Sequence record: PP107930.1
Reading direction: 5' to 3' (one strand)
Length of the DNA stretch: 53,383 nucleotides
Source: Escherichia phage FXie-2024a
Shown here: positions 2,431-39,839 of the stretch, piece after piece
Layout: every line of letters begins with the position of its first letter
How positions within the stretch are numbered: position 1 is the first letter of the stretch
The notes under the pieces: model-generated
Told to the model about the DNA's origin: nothing
Database searches by the model: none
The model's input: only the letters and a program-made list of their open reading frames with translations
Made by a program: the position numbers and the translations under genes

Positions 2431-3477
2431 TTAAGCCACTCGTTTCCAGAGGGCGTAGTAGTGAACGGAGTTGGTTACATCAAATGCCGTACCGCTTCCG
2501 GTTGAGGTTGTGGTGTTATTATTTGGGCCACCTGTAGTGAGGGCAGTCCCACCAGTGTTAGCAGCACTAGAGCCACCTGACGTGCCTTTAAAGTTGGGCA
2601 AGTCTACCTGGTGGAAGTGTACCCCACTTTCGCTAGCCGTACCATCCATGTCATGGTAGTGGTCGCCAGCCCACTCAACGTTACGCGTACCCACAGAGCC
2701 AGAGTTGGAGCCAGCAAACAGTACAGGACTGACGTTAGCGTTGTTACCAAACGTAGCTGCGTGGGTGTGGTTCCCGTTAGTTGTGGTACGTCCCGTCACT
2801 GCGTGGGAGTGTGCACCGTTGGGCGTTGAGTTGTGAAGTGGATGCTTGTGGTCTATGGCATGAGTATGCGTCATAGAGTGGGTGTGAGAGGCAATACCGT
2901 GCGTGTGGTTCTGCATTCCGTGAGTGTGTCCAGGAATGTTTGGCACAGCAAGAGTTACAGTATCAGAGCCACCAGTTGAGCCAATCTGACCTTCGGTTGT
3001 ACCAGCTTCGGCAGAGGTAGCAGCACGGACAGAACGACCATCGACAATTTGTTCCCACACAGTTCCTGTGAAGGAGTTGTTTGGGTTGGTGGCATTCTCG
3101 AACTTTAACACAATTCCAATTGGGTAGATGGCGTTGTAGATATTGTTGGCATTAATCAGTTCTCTCCACGGGGTCCAAGTCCGGACCCCAGCTCCCTGGT
3201 CTTGAGAACGAATCCACATACGGAGGTTGCCGAAGTTTGTATATCTCTGTATACAGTTGTCAGAAGTACCGGCATGGGTGAGAAGAACTTCCAAGTTGCC
3301 AGCTTCGGCACCAGCAGGGTATCCATTTGCCACTGTTGCGTTTGCGTTCTGGTTCTGGGGGAACGTACCTACATTATCTCTTCCCCACATATCGTTGATG
3401 TTCTTGGTCCCCAAGGAATCTACACTTTTAGCATAGTGTTCCTGGACCAGCGCATCTAAAGAATAACCTTTAGCCAT
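2431..3477 (-). CDS. Tail fiber protein, distal tip with His-x-His repeats
   Basis: 348 aa; run of HTHGMQNHTHGIASHTHSMTHTHAIDHKH resembling metal-binding HxH motifs of T4-type fiber tips; Gly/Thr-rich C-terminus. Confidence 0.6.
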   Translation of the reverse strand: MAKGYSLDALVQEHYAKSVDSLGTKNINDMWGRDNVGTFPQNQNANATVANGYPAGAEAGNLEVLLTHAGTSDNCIQRYTNFGNLRMWIRSQDQGAGVRTWTPWRELINANNIYNAIYPIGIVLKFENATNPNNSFTGTVWEQIVDGRSVRAATSAEAGTTEGQIGSTGGSDTVTLAVPNIPGHTHGMQNHTHGIASHTHSMTHTHAIDHKHPLHNSTPNGAHSHAVTGRTTTNGNHTHAATFGNNANVSPVLFAGSNSGSVGTRNVEWAGDHYHDMDGTASESGVHFHQVDLPNFKGTSGGSSAANTGGTALTTGGPNNNTTTSTGSGTAFDVTNSVHYYALWKRVA

Positions 3478-37661: not shown

Positions 37662-37802
37662 CTTAGATGGCGCACGCACCACTTGAGCAGTCGTTATCAC
37701 CAGCACCAGGAACGATTGCTTCTTCGTCCTGCTTCTTCTTGAGTTCTTCAATTGCTTCTTCGGCAGCACCGAAGTCCAAATTGTCTAATGCATCAAAATC
37801 CA
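37662..37802 (-). CDS. Unlisted 46-aa acidic peptide
   Basis: ATG at 37800..37802 to TAA at 37662..37664; MDFDALDNLDFGAAEEAIEELKKK...DCSSGACAI; between the tRNA-like element and the membrane-protein gene. Confidence 0.25.
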
Positions 37803-37831
37803 TGAGGACTCCATGTTTGTTGTTGAGAGTG

Positions 37832-37924
37832 GCGGACGAGGTTGGGTTCGAACCAACGACACATCTGTCTTACAGATTGCTCTACCTGACTAAGCTCTGG
37901 AGCAGACCTTCTGAGCTACTCGTC
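37832..37924 (-). tRNA. tRNA-like element with non-canonical D region
   Basis: 7-bp acceptor pairing (GGACGAG / CTCGTCC), canonical T arm GTTGG-TTCGAAC-CCAAC, discriminator G and encoded CCA. About 93 nt; D and anticodon arms do not fold canonically. Confidence 0.4.
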
Positions 37925-38305
37925 CAGAATAAGGTGGGGGGTTTTGGTAACGCAGGTTTTCCCAAACTGCGAGGCTTGTAGCAAGACAGTCGCATTACTT
38001 TGCGAATGCCAGCAGGATTGATGGTCCGACCGTCTTTGCTTAGGCAACCTGATTTAATCTACCTTTGTAGATACCATCGGTTAGAGTAGTTTATTTCCAT
38101 GCTCAGGGCAATTCACTTATGCGAATTAGGTTACGCAGTGCAGCTTCGAAGTCACTGCCACAGGTTTGAGGTTTCCTGTGTGGAGGGAAATCCAGAGGAG
38201 CACTTCCTCAAGGAGTTACGTTTCATATTGGCATAGCTTCTCACACTAAACCAATTGAAGACATTCCAGTGTGCTCGTCCGTCCTCTAGAAATATCCAAC
38301 TGCAT

Positions 38306-38465
38306 AATTAAGTTTGTACTCTGTCACATCCCCACGCGCACTGAGGGACTTAAGCCTGCATTGCATCGCAGAATACAAATTGATAATTAAGTTTGTACTC
38401 TGTCACACTGCATCGCCAAGATGTGCAGCCTAAGGTTATCGGTTCATCGCAGAATACAAATTAAT
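38306..38465 (-). repeat. Tandem pair of ~80-bp imperfect palindromic elements
   Basis: Two adjacent units with conserved ends (AAGTTTGTACTCTGTCACA ... CATCGCAGAATACAAATT) that are inverted repeats of each other, enclosing different ~45-nt cores. Confidence 0.5.
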
Positions 38466-38635
38466 TATTGCTCCGATTTATTAATCACATCTCGAAGCCA
38501 CAATGCGCCAAATTTGGTTACATGGGATTGGAAGACCACGGAGAGAACTTAAATCTAATTAAGCTGCAACTCGCATTTCAGAATCATTTGCACTTGTGTT
38601 TAGTGTTTAAAACAGTCGCATAATAACGAAATGAA

Positions 38636-38691
38636 AACTACTTCAATAACACCACTCGTAAGTAATGTTATTGAAGCCCTCTCGTAAGAGG
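38636..38691 (-). terminator. Putative intrinsic terminator (double hairpin)
   Basis: Immediately after the stop of the 38703..39041 gene: CCTCT-TACG-AGAGG hairpin, then a 10-bp stem CTTCAATAAC / GTTATTGAAG, then a U-rich tract. Confidence 0.4.
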
Positions 38692-38702
38692 ACTCCATTG
38701 TC

Positions 38703-39116: not shown

Positions 39117-39134
39117 TTTCACATCCAATTAATG
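39117..39134 (-). promoter_or_regulatory. Copy of recurrent 18-bp motif, about 76 nt upstream of the 38703..39041 gene
   Basis: Plus strand TTCACATCCAATTAATGT. Confidence 0.35.
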
Positions 39135-39164: not shown

Positions 39165-39839
39165 TCAATACATATTGAATCGTTCGATTGATTTAATCAC
39201 TAAATCCTTTGTCTCAGCGACAGTGAGTTCAGTTGTAATCGAGTCGTCAATGCCCTCGATTTGAATTGCAACAAAACGTCCCACACCTGTTACAGTCATG
39301 CGGTTGGTTCGGTCACGGATAATCACACCAGCTTCACCCTCAACAGCACGAAGCAGTTTCCAACGAAGTGTGCGATTCGGCACAGCAAAGCCCTTTGTCG
39401 AGAACAACTCTTTCATGAGTTCCCCAAGGCAAACAGCTTCAATGTTCATTCCTCTTCCAACTAATTCTTGCAACAGGCACAATGTCAACATTTCTAAATT
39501 GTTGAAGTGTCCAGCGCGCTCCAGATTAAAGAACTCTGGAGGAACAGTTGAGCGGGATTTAACAGCTTGCTTATATGCACGTTCTTCTTCTTGTGCAGCA
39601 AGCATGAGCATCTCTGGTTTGATGTATTTCATCGCAGAGAAGCCAGCGCGAGTGGCTTTAATGATTCGGCAAGCCTCTTTCATTTTGTAGCGTTGCCACT
39701 CACCGCGTTTAGATTCTGGATTAAAATGGACCCACATGATGATAACATCTTCCTTGGCAAGATAGACGGCATCATTATCATTGAGCCACTGCTTGCACGT
39801 AGAAAGTGCAATTTCTTTGTCATCATCATGATAAGACAT
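39165..39839 (-). CDS. Hypothetical protein
   Basis: 224 aa early ORF. Confidence 0.45.
   Translation of the reverse strand: MSYHDDDKEIALSTCKQWLNDNDAVYLAKEDVIIMWVHFNPESKRGEWQRYKMKEACRIIKATRAGFSAMKYIKPEMLMLAAQEEERAYKQAVKSRSTVPPEFFNLERAGHFNNLEMLTLCLLQELVGRGMNIEAVCLGELMKELFSTKGFAVPNRTLRWKLLRAVEGEAGVIIRDRTNRMTVTGVGRFVAIQIEGIDDSITTELTVAETKDLVIKSIERFNMY

What the first reader, a model, noticed from the sequence alone, without database searches (positions are those of the whole stretch)
37832..37924. tRNA-like gene with a non-canonical D region
A perfect 7-bp acceptor helix, a canonical T arm, a discriminator base and an encoded CCA are present, but the element is about 93 nt long. Either the D loop carries an insertion of about 22 nt (class I reading, anticodon loop GTAAGAC) or there is a long variable arm ATCTGT-AAG-ACAGAT with a poorly paired D stem (class II reading, possible CAG anticodon). 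It could be a functional unusual tRNA, a tRNA-derived small RNA or a decayed tRNA.
Basis: seen in the sequence. Interest (0 to 1): 0.5.

Follow-up and report, generated by a model that had tools for sequence, protein, structure and literature searches.

The report
Phage tRNA-shaped RNA without fixed anticodon
The element is real: it is the so-called tRNA-Arg gene of phiEcoM-GJ1-like coliphages, but it keeps the tRNA body while its 'anticodon' drifts freely, so it is more likely a tRNA mimic than a codon reader, and it lies next to an unannotated RNA that resembles the tag-coding part of tmRNA.

Summary
On the minus strand at 37925..37830 lies a 96-nt gene with a perfect 7-bp acceptor stem, a canonical T arm, discriminator G and CCA. 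Rfam's tRNA model scores it 39.2 bits (threshold 29), but only with relaxed filters; ARAGORN finds nothing. The window is a Carltongylesvirus (Chaseviridae). The same gene is annotated 'tRNA-Arg, may contain an intron' in phiEcoM-GJ1.

Among 28 relatives the tRNA core barely varies (pi 0-0.02). The loop triplet (UCG, AAG here, CGA, UAG), the tip of the D-loop insert, the discriminator and the CCA vary at about the neutral rate (pi 0.15-0.25). The 'anticodon' arm is only 15 nt (5 bp plus a 5-nt loop), and the D loop is 30 nt. Sister genera carry, at the same locus, tRNA-shaped RNAs whose central arm has no anticodon loop.

Best reading: a selected, non-decoding tRNA-like RNA. A true tRNA (Arg-UCG in most relatives, AAG here) remains a serious rival; a pseudogene is unlikely.

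About 630 nt upstream lies a conserved, covariation-supported RNA. It carries a start-less frame ANDSEMRVAA-stop and a pseudoknot, like the coding part of tmRNA, and occurs in several phage families. A functional link between the two RNAs is unproven.

The parts
37830..37925 (-). Whole tRNA-shaped gene, 96 nt including the encoded CCA. It is the orthologue of phiEcoM-GJ1 gt01, annotated 'tRNA-Arg'.
   Evidence: Rfam tRNA 39.2 bits at 37833..37925. Orthologue annotation. 28 homologues.
37919..37925 (-). Acceptor stem 5' strand GGACGAG. It pairs with 37834..37840.
   Evidence: 7 of 7 Watson-Crick pairs. Paired in 14 of 14 distinct sequences, with G-C to G-U at one pair. 4 of 7 pairs are changed on both sides in the Erwinia phage Y2 homologue.
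37883..37912 (-). 30-nt D loop between the D stem strands GCUC (37913..37916) and GAGC (37879..37882). It holds two GG motifs and an insert of about 20 nt.
   Evidence: The Rfam alignment places a 24-nt insertion after G18G19. The D stem is invariant in 14 of 14 sequences. Phage SA91KD lacks 6 nt of this loop.
37894..37903 (-). Mini-hairpin inside the D-loop insert: GCU-CCAG-AGC, or alternatively UCUG-CUC-CAGA.
   Evidence: Two insert types exist (GCU/AGC and GCA/UGC), with one pair changed on both sides (U-A to A-U). Diversity of the insert is pi 0.15.
37863..37877 (-). 15-nt hairpin in the anticodon-arm position: AUCUG-UAAGA-CAGAU (5 bp plus a 5-nt loop, or 6 bp plus the triloop AAG).
   Evidence: The stem is invariant. 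The loop (37868..37872) is variable in 4 of 5 columns, pi 0.167. Variants are UUCGA, UAAGA, UCGAA and UUAGG. UCGAA is the exact reverse complement of UUCGA.
37841..37857 (-). T arm GUUGG-UUCGAAC-CCAAC, preceded by the variable loop GUGUC (37858..37862).
   Evidence: Canonical in the Rfam alignment. Invariant except T-loop position 60. The T/C variant of this arm (UUCGAAU, as in most relatives) is identical to the arm in Erwinia phage Y2.
37830..37840 (-). Acceptor 3' strand CUCGUCC, discriminator G (37833) and CCA (37830..37832).
   Evidence: Among relatives the discriminator is A or G and the tail is CCA, CCC or CUC, with pi 0.245.
37951..37971 (-). Near-invariant leader hairpin CGCAG-UUUGGGAAAAC-CUGCG. 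It is followed by UUACCA and a variable C-rich leader of about 18 nt.
   Evidence: pi 0.024, against 0.24 for the leader proper. Retained in PYps3T, which lacks the tRNA-like gene.
38470..38591 (-). Neighbouring tmRNA-like coding RNA; its link to the tRNA-like gene is not shown. Parts: start-less tag frame ANDSEMRVAA plus stop (38591..38559); stop-codon hairpin (38567..38545); pseudoknot (38540-36/38525-21 and 38531-28/38511-08); hairpin with the invariant loop GAUGUGAUUAAUAAA (38498..38470).
   Evidence: Sub-threshold Rfam tmRNA_permuted and alpha_tmRNA hits.

Best explanation
The element is a tRNA-shaped RNA gene that is kept by selection but does not work as an ordinary codon-reading tRNA.

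Shown:
- It is conserved across Carltongylesvirus-like phages.
- It keeps the features that build the tRNA L-shape: U8, A14, G15-C48, G18G19, A21, G46, the T loop, and the acceptor, D and T stems.
- Its 'anticodon' arm is 2 nt short.
- The triplet, the discriminator and the CCA evolve at about the neutral rate.
- The D loop carries a plastic hairpin-containing insert of about 20 nt.
- Sister genera have, at the same locus, tRNA-shaped RNAs whose central arm is a long helix without an anticodon loop.

Inferred:
- It is transcribed on the minus strand inside a long phage-polymerase transcript. No promoter-like site lies close upstream.
- It is cut out by the host tRNA-processing enzymes: RNase P at G37925, then 3' trimming and CCA repair.
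- It acts through its tRNA-like body as a tRNA mimic.

The most plausible target is the ribosome-rescue (tmRNA-SmpB) pathway, because the same non-coding cassette begins with a tmRNA-like tag-template RNA. It could act as an acceptor-type partner of that RNA, or as a competitor of the kind reported for the TLD-only tmRNA of mycobacteriophage DS6A. That last step is a hypothesis.
For: (1) tRNA fold. Rfam tRNA scores 39.2 bits against 29. All 25 pairs of the class I structure are paired in 14 distinct sequences, with one compensatory pair.

(2) Pattern of constraint in 28 sequences. Stems and core have pi 0-0.02. The loop has 0.167 (4 of 5 columns vary), the insert 0.15, positions 73-76 0.245, the flanking leader 0.24 and trailer 0.21, and third codon positions of the next ORF 0.153.

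(3) Four loop triplets sit on an otherwise identical body: UCG, AAG, CGA and UAG. The TH29 variant is the exact inversion of the common loop. The AAG allele occurs in three phages with different flanks and an intact body.

(4) The arm is 15 nt: 5 bp plus a 5-nt loop.

(5) Neither GG motif is followed by A20, which is the main ArgRS determinant in E. coli according to my own knowledge. The window also has A35 instead of C35.

(6) Gene callers disagree. They give Arg (tRNAscan-SE, in others' annotations), Leu-CAG or Ser-GCU (ARAGORN), or nothing (PMC6753284).

(7) Erwinia phage Y2 and coliphage 4HA13 have, at the same locus, cloverleaf-like RNAs. They have an acceptor stem, a T arm (identical in Y2 to the UUCGAAU form found in most relatives of the window) and a CCA or CCC tail. 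Their central arm is long and has no 7-nt loop.

(8) Context. A tag-template RNA lies upstream in every genome examined. A TLD-only phage RNA that inhibits tmRNA is on record (PMC4131195, PMC11915505).
Against: tRNAscan-SE-based annotations call the majority allele tRNA-Arg(UCG). CGA and CUU codons are about 1.6-1.8 times more frequent in this phage than in E. coli (the host values are from memory). This fits the classical codon-supply role for the UCG and AAG alleles.

The U at loop position 1 and the purine at position 5 are kept as in U33/R37, and the UAG variant carries G37, as real tRNA-Leu does.

There is no G3:U70 pair, so alanine charging as in tmRNA is excluded.

No covariation links the element's variable tips to the upstream RNA. 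PYps3T, 4T and 16T keep the tag RNA but lack the element (PMC8762354), so the two are not obligate partners.

No expression, processing or charging data exist.
Confidence: 0.5

Rival explanations
1. It is a genuine decoding class I tRNA with an expanded D loop. Ancestrally it was tRNA-Arg(UCG), supplying the CGA codon that E. coli reads poorly. The window's allele has switched to anticodon AAG (Leu, CUU). In use, the G-C pair closing the loop opens to give a 7-nt loop G-U-NNN-R-C.
For: The Rfam tRNA hit is above threshold. Relatives are annotated tRNA-Arg by tRNAscan-SE (PMC6266442). All tertiary-interaction nucleotides are present. 22 of 28 copies carry UCG. CGA is at 6.4 per 1000 and CUU at 17.5 per 1000 in the phage, against about 3.6 and 11 in E. 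coli. The loop keeps U33 and R37. A73/G73 are both acceptable for Arg (own knowledge).
Against: The anticodon arm is 2 nt short. A G32-C38 pair would be nearly unique among tRNAs (own knowledge). A20 is absent. The same body carries four different triplets for three amino acids. Of the relevant synthetases only ArgRS reads the anticodon, and the body lacks the class II features that LeuRS and SerRS recognise. One variant is a simple loop inversion. The triplet evolves at the neutral rate while no other 'null' mutation is seen. Homologues in sister genera have no anticodon loop. An engineered D-loop insertion in E. coli tRNA-Tyr was not stably expressed (PMC5397188).
Confidence: 0.25
2. It is a class II tRNA-Leu(CAG). 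The hairpin GCUUA-GUCAGGU-AGAGC is the anticodon arm and AUCUGU-AAG-ACAGAU is a long variable arm. Free variation of that arm's loop would then be expected.
For: The segment lengths fit a class II tRNA. The loop GUCAGGU is invariant in 27 of 28 copies and resembles the E. coli tRNA-Leu(CAG) loop UUCAGGU (own knowledge). ARAGORN calls the GJ1 and SKA49 copies Leu(cag). Variable-arm loops are normally unconstrained.
Against: The D stem has only 2-3 bp, shifted by one position, and breaks in the second insert type. Pair 31-39 is A.A in every copy. Overall 95.6% of cells pair and there are no compensatory changes, against 100% with one for class I. SA91KD lacks the CAG. G73 in the window conflicts with the A73 requirement of LeuRS (own knowledge). 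CUG is used less by the phage than by the host. Infernal's best parse is class I.
Confidence: 0.06
3. It is only a cis-acting processing signal. A tRNA-like fold recruits RNase P and 3' processing to cut the long phage transcript between the upstream non-coding RNAs and the downstream mRNA (small ORF and spanins). The released RNA has no function of its own.
For: No promoter-like site lies within about 1.2 kb upstream. The element sits 26 nt before the start codon of the next ORF. In other phage families canonical tRNA genes of several different specificities follow the homologous tag RNA at 15-550 nt, which suggests that any tRNA may serve. The triplet, discriminator and CCA are unconstrained.
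Against: RNase P needs little more than the acceptor and T arms (own knowledge). Yet the D stem, both GG motifs, the hairpin stem and the variable loop are invariant. Phages that lack the element are viable and keep the same flanks.
Confidence: 0.12
4. It is a decaying tRNA pseudogene.
For: The D loop and anticodon loop are non-canonical. The gene is absent from some relatives (PMC8762354). Many copies lack CCA.
Against: About 75 structural positions show 3 variable columns, whereas 24 of 46 neighbouring third codon positions vary. There are no stem-breaking changes in 28 copies, and compensatory changes occur within and between genera.
Confidence: 0.03

Closest known systems
phiEcoM-GJ1 gt01, 'tRNA-Arg, may contain an intron' (NC_010106 14456..14550), and the 95-bp 'tRNA-Arg' of phage ST32
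   Same: It is the orthologous gene. It sits at the same position between the gp29-like gene and the spanins. The acceptor 5' strand, D stem, hairpin stem and T arm match, apart from single T/C differences at T-loop position 60 and at one acceptor 3'-strand position (G-C to G-U) (PMC6266442).
   Different: The window has the loop UAAGA (triplet AAG) where those phages have UUCGA (UCG). It also has the other D-insert type (GCUCCAGAGCUU rather than GCAUUGUGCUC). The literature treats the gene as an ordinary tRNA for 'arginine or leucine' (PMC8762354) and has not examined its structure or variation.
TLD-only tmRNA of mycobacteriophage DS6A, and engineered tRNA-like-domain RNAs that inhibit tmRNA
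   Same: Both are small phage-encoded RNAs with an acceptor stem, a T arm and a CCA-type end but no decoding function. The proposed action is as a tRNA/tmRNA mimic (PMC4131195, PMC11915505).
   Different: There is no detectable sequence relationship and no Rfam tmRNA hit on the element. There is no G3:U70. The element keeps a D stem and a short central hairpin. No SmpB binding or inhibition has been shown.
Two-piece (permuted) tmRNA of alpha- and beta-proteobacteria and cyanobacteria
   Same: In both, a coding RNA with a start-less Ala-initiated tag frame and pseudoknot is separate from an acceptor-type RNA. The upstream phage RNA gives weak alpha_tmRNA and tmRNA_permuted hits over the tag region.
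   Different: In two-piece tmRNA the acceptor stem is formed between the two pieces and carries G3:U70. Here the tRNA-like RNA closes its own acceptor stem, and no pairing or covariation with the coding RNA was found. The scores are far below the gathering threshold (18.8-34 bits against 47).
Phage T4 stable RNAs 'species 1 and 2' (RNA C and D) in the tRNA gene cluster (own knowledge)
   Same: They are phage-encoded, tRNA-processed RNAs with tRNA-like ends, and no decoding role is known for them.
   Different: There is no sequence relationship. The T4 RNAs are longer (about 120-140 nt) and were not compared here.
Archaeal tRNAs with introns at non-canonical positions such as the D loop
   Same: Both have an extra hairpin-containing segment inside the D loop. 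Metagenome contigs with TAGCTCAGAAGG + hairpin + GGTAGAGC and further insertions look like this kind (L146/L155, L150, L152).
   Different: Those inserts are removed by the archaeal splicing endonuclease at bulge-helix-bulge motifs. E. coli and this phage have no such enzyme (own knowledge; annotation), and the insert is too short for a self-splicing intron.

Membership tests
Canonical decoding tRNA (bacterial or phage, class I) | 7-bp acceptor stem, discriminator, and a 3' CCA that is encoded or addable | tested here: met
   GGACGAG/CUCGUCC, then G and CCA. Paired in 14 of 14 distinct relatives.
Canonical decoding tRNA (bacterial or phage, class I) | T arm of 5 bp plus a 7-nt loop with T54-Psi55-C56 and A58, and core nucleotides U8, A14, G15-C48, G18G19, A21 | tested here: met
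   GUUGG-UUCGAAC-CCAAC. All core nucleotides can be read directly.
Canonical decoding tRNA (bacterial or phage, class I) | D loop of about 7-11 nt | tested here: not met
   The loop is 30 nt. Rfam places a 24-nt insertion.
Canonical decoding tRNA (bacterial or phage, class I) | Anticodon arm of 5 bp plus a 7-nt loop (17 nt) | tested here: not met
   The arm is 15 nt: AUCUG-UAAGA-CAGAU. The model's loop is shortened by 2 nt in the alignment.
Canonical decoding tRNA (bacterial or phage, class I) | Anticodon conserved among orthologues | tested here: not met
   Four triplets occur in 28 copies. Loop pi is 0.167, against 0-0.02 for the body.
Canonical decoding tRNA (bacterial or phage, class I) | Recognised by standard detectors | tested here: inconclusive
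   Rfam scores 39.2 bits (above 29), but only with relaxed filters. ARAGORN finds none in the window and gives Leu, Ser or nothing in relatives. tRNAscan-SE could not be run here.
tRNA-Arg (E. coli ArgRS identity set: A20, C35, U/G36, A/G73; own knowledge) | A20 in the D loop | tested here: not met
   Both GG motifs are followed by U (AGAAGGU and CAGGUA).
tRNA-Arg (E. coli ArgRS identity set: A20, C35, U/G36, A/G73; own knowledge) | C35 | tested here: not met
   The window triplet is AAG. C35 is present in the 22 of 28 relatives that carry UCG.
Class II tRNA-Leu(CAG) | A paired D stem and a 5-bp anticodon stem flanking a 7-nt loop, A73, and presence in all orthologues | tested here: not met
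   The D stem has 2-3 bp and breaks in insert type 2. Pair 31-39 is A.A in every copy that has it. The window has G73. The CAG is deleted in SA91KD.
tmRNA tRNA-like domain | G3:U70 alanine identity pair | tested here: not met
   A3-U70 in the window. G-C or C-G at 3:70 in the Y2 and 4HA13 homologues.
tmRNA tRNA-like domain | Acceptor stem plus T arm plus NCCA end, with no anticodon loop | tested here: inconclusive
   The acceptor stem, T arm and end are met. The central arm has no 7-nt loop in any genus. However, a tRNA-type D stem is present and no tmRNA model matches.
tmRNA tRNA-like domain | Physical link (covalent or base-paired) to a tag-coding domain, and SmpB binding | tested here: inconclusive
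   The tag RNA lies 633 nt upstream on the same strand. No covariation with it was found, and it persists in phages that lack the element. SmpB binding cannot be tested with these tools.
tmRNA mRNA-like domain (this concerns the neighbouring RNA, not the element) | Start-less reading frame that begins with an Ala codon after an A-rich stretch, ends in A-A or V-A plus a stop codon held in a hairpin, and is followed by a pseudoknot | tested here: met
   10 distinct tags seen: AN(D/E)xxxxx(A/V)A in every case, 10 codons each. An in-frame stop or an indel lies just upstream. The pseudoknot is 100% paired, with 3 of 4 pairs covarying.
tmRNA mRNA-like domain (this concerns the neighbouring RNA, not the element) | Rfam tmRNA gathering score, or an ARAGORN tmRNA call with a complete tRNA-like domain | tested here: not met
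   tmRNA_permuted scores 18.8-34.1 bits against 47. alpha_tmRNA scores 13.7-22.6 against 50. ARAGORN reports no tmRNA.

The most novel reading that the evidence does not exclude
The tRNA-shaped RNA and the tag-template RNA at the other end of the same 884-nt non-coding cassette are the two halves of a split, phage-encoded trans-translation system, or of an antagonist of the host one. A self-contained acceptor-type RNA without an anticodon would work with, or compete against, a separate coding RNA that adds or mimics an ssrA-like degradation tag (ANDSEMRVAA). Related cassettes exist in Chaseviridae, Ackermannviridae and 46-49-kb siphoviruses of enterobacteria.
Probability: 0.2. Interest if true: 0.85.

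Novelty: new variant of a known kind. Interest (0 to 1): 0.6.

Why it matters
Phage tRNA genes are usually read as codon supplements or, more recently, as replacements for tRNAs destroyed by host defences. Here a gene that has been deposited as 'tRNA-Arg' (or Leu, or nothing) since 2008 keeps the tRNA body under selection while the anticodon, discriminator and CCA drift. Sister genera have replaced the anticodon arm altogether.

If the non-decoding reading is right, this is a case of a virus using the tRNA shape for something other than decoding. It would also warn against counting such genes in codon-usage studies.

The neighbouring RNA may matter more. It is a covariation-supported RNA with an ssrA-like tag frame and a pseudoknot. 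It was unannotated as an RNA in every GenBank record I inspected (a few place hypothetical-protein CDSs over it), and it is shared by several families of enterobacterial phages. If it is used in trans-translation, it would make phage manipulation of ribosome rescue and ClpXP tagging directly testable in E. coli.

Tried and rejected
Rejected: about 20 nt is too short for self-splicing, and neither host nor phage is known to have a splicing endonuclease (annotation).

Class II Leu(CAG) reading. Tested and disfavoured.

Pseudogene. Rejected on conservation.

Host origin. There was no blastn match of the element or of the 775-nt upstream region in 5,426 E. coli genomes.

Canonical ancestor. A 'de-inserted' 75-nt version finds only generic class I phage tRNAs (Phe, Lys, Ile and others) at 76-79% identity. 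Pattern scans of IMG/VR, JGI metagenomes and GTDB gave only family members, plus one probably coincidental tRNA-Tyr in Verticiella and one unrelated jumbo-phage locus.

Partner pairing. No column in 1 kb upstream or 60 nt downstream covaries with the insert type or the loop variant.

Thermodynamics. Unconstrained MFE folds of the central region are ambiguous, and the class I and class II structures differ by about 1 kcal/mol.

tRNA- or tmRNA-related proteins. Eight neighbouring ORFs gave no SmpB hit in Pfam, PHROGs gave only spanins and unknowns, and the annotation of a relative shows no RNA ligase, Pnkp or CCA enzyme.

T7 class II pause motif ATCTGTT inside the hairpin. It occurs 4 times in the window against 11 expected and is absent from the window's own allele. 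Not pursued.

Complete tRNA-like domain for the tag RNA. None was found in any of the phage groups by eye, ARAGORN or Rfam.
Full report
1. What is there

On the minus strand, window 37925..37830 reads GGACGAG UA GCUC AGAAGGUCUGCUCCAGAGCUUAGUCAGGUA GAGC A AUCUG UAAGA CAGAU GUGUC GUUGG UUCGAAC CCAAC CUCGUCC G CCA. It is 93 nt to the discriminator and 96 nt with CCA.

The acceptor stem is a perfect 7 bp and the T arm is canonical. The nucleotides that build the tRNA core are all present: U8, A14, G15-C48, G18G19, A21, G46, T54-Psi55-C56 and A58. Two things are abnormal. The D loop has 30 nt, and the arm in the anticodon position has 15 nt (5 bp plus a 5-nt loop) where a tRNA has 17.

ARAGORN finds no tRNA in the window. 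Rfam with default filters finds nothing. With permissive filters the tRNA model matches end to end at 39.2 bits (gathering score 29; E = 8e-5 for the whole window). The alignment has a 24-nt insertion in the D loop and a loop 2 nt short.

2. Whose gene it is

The window is about 90% identical to phiEcoM-GJ1-like myoviruses (Chaseviridae, Carltongylesvirus). The orthologous gene of phiEcoM-GJ1 is annotated 'tRNA-Arg, may contain an intron' and is 95 nt long. ST32 is reported to have a 95-bp tRNA-Arg (PMC6266442). Ecp_YSF and Pel53 carry 71-nt tRNAscan-SE calls that start inside the D loop. The Mangalitsa paper reports 0 tRNAs with ARAGORN (PMC6753284). The PYps paper speaks of a tRNA 'for arginine or leucine' and notes that PYps3T, 4T and 16T lack exactly this gene (PMC8762354). 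I confirmed that absence. ARAGORN run here gives Leu(cag) for GJ1 and SKA49, Ser(gct) for SA91KD, and nothing for the others. The gene is therefore known, but it has never been called consistently and, as far as I could find, never analysed.

3. Variation in 28 copies (14 distinct)

I extracted the element from 25 further GenBank phages, one IMG/VR contig and two metagenome contigs; with the window's own copy that makes 28.

The body is almost invariant. All the variation falls in four places.
- The 5-nt loop is UUCGA in 22 copies, UAAGA in the window, TH26 and PYps16N, UCGAA in TH29, and UUAGG in Bp7 and JL1.
- The tip of the D insert comes in two types, GCUCCAGAGCUU and GCAUU-GUGCUC. There is also one point variant, and SA91KD has a 6-nt deletion.
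- The discriminator is A or G.
- The 3' tail is CCA, CCC or CUC.

Nucleotide diversity makes the same point. It is 0-0.02 in stems and core, 0.167 in the loop, 0.15 in the insert and 0.245 at positions 73-76. The leader has 0.24, the trailer 0.21, and third codon positions of the adjacent ORF 0.153.

The tRNA body is therefore under purifying selection, which excludes a pseudogene. The parts that define a decoder evolve like neutral sequence. The TH29 loop is the exact reverse complement of the common one, which is what a single inversion inside the perfect palindrome AUCUGU-NNN-ACAGAU would produce. The AAG allele occurs in three phages with different leaders and different T-loop position 60, always with an intact body. 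It is therefore not a fresh null allele.

4. Which fold

For the class I structure, 100% of pair cells are paired and one pair of the insert mini-hairpin is changed on both sides (U-A to A-U). That structure uses the D stem GCUC(10-13)/GAGC(44-47), the mini-hairpin in the insert, the short hairpin and the T arm.

The class II/CAG reading gives 95.6% paired cells and no double changes. Its D stem breaks in insert type 2 and it has a constant A.A mismatch. SA91KD lacks its 'anticodon' altogether.

A third possibility exists. The second GCUY could pair with GAGC to give a perfectly canonical D arm with loop AGUCAGGUA. Infernal's local alignment chooses this in Bp7, but it cannot form in SA91KD.

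Energies do not discriminate between the readings. Class I is the only reading that fits every member.

5. Is it a decoder?

Against decoding:
- The loop is 2 nt short.
- The triplet drifts.
- Four triplets for three amino acids sit on one body. That body lacks A20 and, in the window, C35, which are the ArgRS determinants in E. coli by my own knowledge. It also lacks class II features for LeuRS or SerRS.
- The discriminator drifts.

For decoding:
- U and a purine flank the triplet, as U33 and R37 do in a tRNA.
- The UAG variant has G at position 37.
- The phage uses CGA at 6.4 per 1000 and CUU at 17.5 per 1000, above E. coli's roughly 3.6 and 11 (host values from memory).

The strongest evidence comes from sister genera. 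Erwinia phage Y2 (Loessnervirus) has, at the same locus, a 116-nt RNA with an 8-bp acceptor stem and a T arm identical to the UUCGAAU form of this element's T arm. Against the window, 4 of the 7 aligned acceptor pairs are changed on both sides. It also has a D-like hairpin and a central arm of 6 + 8 bp capped by a 13-nt loop. Coliphage 4HA13 (Sabourvirus) has two such RNAs, ending in ACCA and UCCA. One contains the hairpin UCUGC-CUC-GCAGA, which resembles the window's insert UCUG-CUC-CAGA. None of these has a 7-nt anticodon loop, and neither ARAGORN nor Rfam reports any of them.

The family is thus defined by the acceptor stem, a D-like arm, the T arm and a CCA-type end, and not by an anticodon. 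I put about 0.5 on a non-decoding tRNA-like RNA and about 0.25 on a true class I tRNA.

6. Context

Transcription runs on the minus strand. Downstream lie a 46-aa acidic ORF (37803..37663) and then the i- and o-spanins.

For about 880 nt upstream there is no conserved ORF. Relatives differ by 1-2-nt indels, and the small ORFs annotated there differ from record to record. Even so, blocks of this region are more conserved than codon third positions. No sigma-70-like site was found nearby, and the nearest matches to the phage promoter motif are at 39124..39133 and 39456..39465. The element must therefore be excised from a long transcript; this is an inference.

An exact 11-nt repeat, ATGGAGTCCTC, occurs only twice in the window, at 38698..38688 and 37814..37804. 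It brackets the whole non-coding cassette.

7. The neighbour

Weak Rfam tmRNA hits drew attention to window 38591..38559, which reads GCA AAU GAU UCU GAA AUG CGA GUU GCA GCU UAA, that is ANDSEMRVAA-stop. The E. coli ssrA tag is ANDENYALAA (own knowledge).

- The frame is present in all 28 genomes. In the window, GJ1, TH26, Pel53 and TH25 an in-frame UAA lies five codons upstream with no start codon between.
- Sequence conservation begins exactly at the GCA codon.
- The block downstream is shared with unrelated phages: 46-49-kb siphoviruses of Klebsiella, Salmonella, Shigella, E. coli, Aeromonas and Vibrio, Ackermannviridae, and other Chaseviridae.
- All of these carry a 10-codon frame of the same kind with different codons: ANEEVYLAVA, ANEEMYLAVA, ANDDAVLMAA, ANDDQFLAVA, ANDEQFLAVA, ANDTEFKAAA, ANDDVVLMAA, ANDSEVLMAA and ANDNEMRAAA. 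In one of them (L178) a 1-nt indel lies just upstream.
- On 13 diverse sequences, 93% of cells are paired for a structure made of an outer helix around the stop codon, a pseudoknot and a hairpin with the invariant loop GAUGUGAUUAAUAAA. 15 of 20 pairs are changed on both sides and 0 of 500 shuffles reach these values. The pseudoknot stem (CCAA/CCGA/CCAG/UCGA with UUGG/UCGG/CUGG/UCGA) is 100% paired.
- Rfam tmRNA_permuted and alpha_tmRNA match at 14-34 bits, below their thresholds. ARAGORN reports no tmRNA, and I found no complete tRNA-like domain.
- In the other phage families, canonical tRNA genes (Arg-UCU, Met, Ser, Thr, Asn, Gly, Ile) or odd tRNA-like modules follow on the same strand.

Phage tmRNAs are on record for mycobacteriophages and Bacillus phage G. 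The DS6A form is a tRNA-like domain only, and such a molecule inhibits tmRNA, perhaps by titrating SmpB (PMC4131195, PMC11915505). My literature searches found no description of this RNA in coliphages.

8. Are the two linked?

For a link: they share a cassette, and both resemble halves of tmRNA.

Against a link:
- There is no G3:U70.
- No covariation connects the element's variable tips to the upstream kilobase.
- The tag RNA persists in PYps3T and PYps16T, which lack the element.
- No SmpB-like protein is encoded nearby.

I rate a functional partnership or antagonism at about 0.2.

9. Verdict

The gene is already deposited as a tRNA in relatives, but its anatomy and evolution are not those of an ordinary tRNA. 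I class it as a new variant of a known kind (phage tRNA-like RNA) of moderate to high interest. The adjoining tmRNA-like RNA is the more novel lead.

Noticed in passing
window 38470..38650 (minus strand); homologues in L001, L128-L145, L164, L165, L171, L176, L178, L179, L182, L183, L191, L193, L200, L203, L208, L216, L219, L222, L223: A structured RNA, never annotated as an RNA in the GenBank records inspected (most annotate nothing there; a few place hypothetical-protein CDSs over it), with a start-less 10-codon frame that resembles the ssrA tag (ANDSEMRVAA here; 9 other variants elsewhere). The stop codon sits in a hairpin. A pseudoknot with covariation follows, and then a hairpin with the invariant loop GAUGUGAUUAAUAAA. 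It is shared by Chaseviridae, Ackermannviridae and 46-49-kb enterobacterial siphoviruses. No tRNA-like domain was found for it, and its Rfam tmRNA hits are below threshold.
   Followed up: partly
L222 ~1690-1805 (Erwinia phage Y2); L223 ~2451-2551 and ~2557-2665 (coliphage 4HA13): Unannotated tRNA-shaped RNAs with an acceptor stem, a D-like hairpin, a long central arm without an anticodon loop, a T arm and a CCC, ACCA or UCCA tail. They sit at the locus that corresponds to the window element. ARAGORN and Rfam do not report them.
   Followed up: partly
window 38688..38698 and 37804..37814 (minus strand): The exact 11-nt direct repeat ATGGAGTCCTC occurs only twice in the window. It brackets the whole 884-nt non-coding cassette (tag RNA ... 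tRNA-like gene). The downstream copy includes the ribosome-binding site of the 46-aa ORF. It may be the footprint of a cassette insertion.
   Followed up: partly
window ~38300..38460 (minus strand): A tandem duplication of a module of about 80 nt (AAUUUGUAUUCUGCGAUG ... GUGACAGAGUACAAACUUAAUUAU). Its ends can form a 10-bp helix (UUGUAUUCUG/CAGAGUACAA). Most relatives have one copy. In the siphovirus contigs, 19-bp hairpins (ACAACAGGUAAGAGCAUUG ... CAGUGCUCUUUCCGUUGU) separate the RNA modules in a similar way, which suggests RNase III-type processing sites.
   Followed up: no
window 37951..37971 (minus strand): A near-invariant hairpin, CGCAG-UUUGGGAAAAC-CUGCG, followed by UUACCA, lies 19-45 nt upstream of the element. 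It is retained in PYps3T, which lacks the element, and is found elsewhere in the Erwinia phage Y2 genome (L222 ~2660-2700). Its function is unknown.
   Followed up: no
L182 ~2960-3090; L200 4429..4516 (minus strand); L193; L165 1375-1510: The tRNA arrays of the 46-49-kb siphovirus contigs contain further non-canonical tRNA-like modules. Examples are acceptor-type helices GUUGUGG/CCACAAC around long inserts, and an 88-nt Rfam tRNA hit of 38.9 bits with an 11-nt loop. ARAGORN does not call them.
   Followed up: no
L146/L155, L150, L152 (metagenome contigs): tRNA-like genes with a GC-rich hairpin inserted after AGAAGG in the D loop. In L155 there are further insertions in the anticodon and T regions. 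They look like multi-intron archaeal tRNAs and are unrelated to the phage family. Rfam and ARAGORN do not call them.
   Followed up: partly
window 38640..38677 (minus strand) and 38600..38696: A 17-bp terminator-like hairpin followed by AGUUUUCAUU lies after the gp29-like gene. It overlaps a possible 32-codon ORF (MESSYERASITLLTSGVIEVVFISLLCDCFKH). The AGUUUUC motif also begins the conserved 5' part of the tag RNA in other phages, where a sigma-70-like promoter precedes it (L165, L176, L200, L203).
   Followed up: no
L131 (PP952070.1): A record named 'Staphylococcus phage Pel53' (host Staphylococcus hyicus) is about 91% identical to this coliphage family across the locus. The host label looks doubtful.
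   Followed up: no
whole window: The T7 class II pause motif ATCTGTT occurs 4 times against 11.2 +/- 3.4 expected, and only twice on the transcribed strand. The majority allele of the element's hairpin contains it; the window's allele (ATCTGTA) does not.
   Followed up: no
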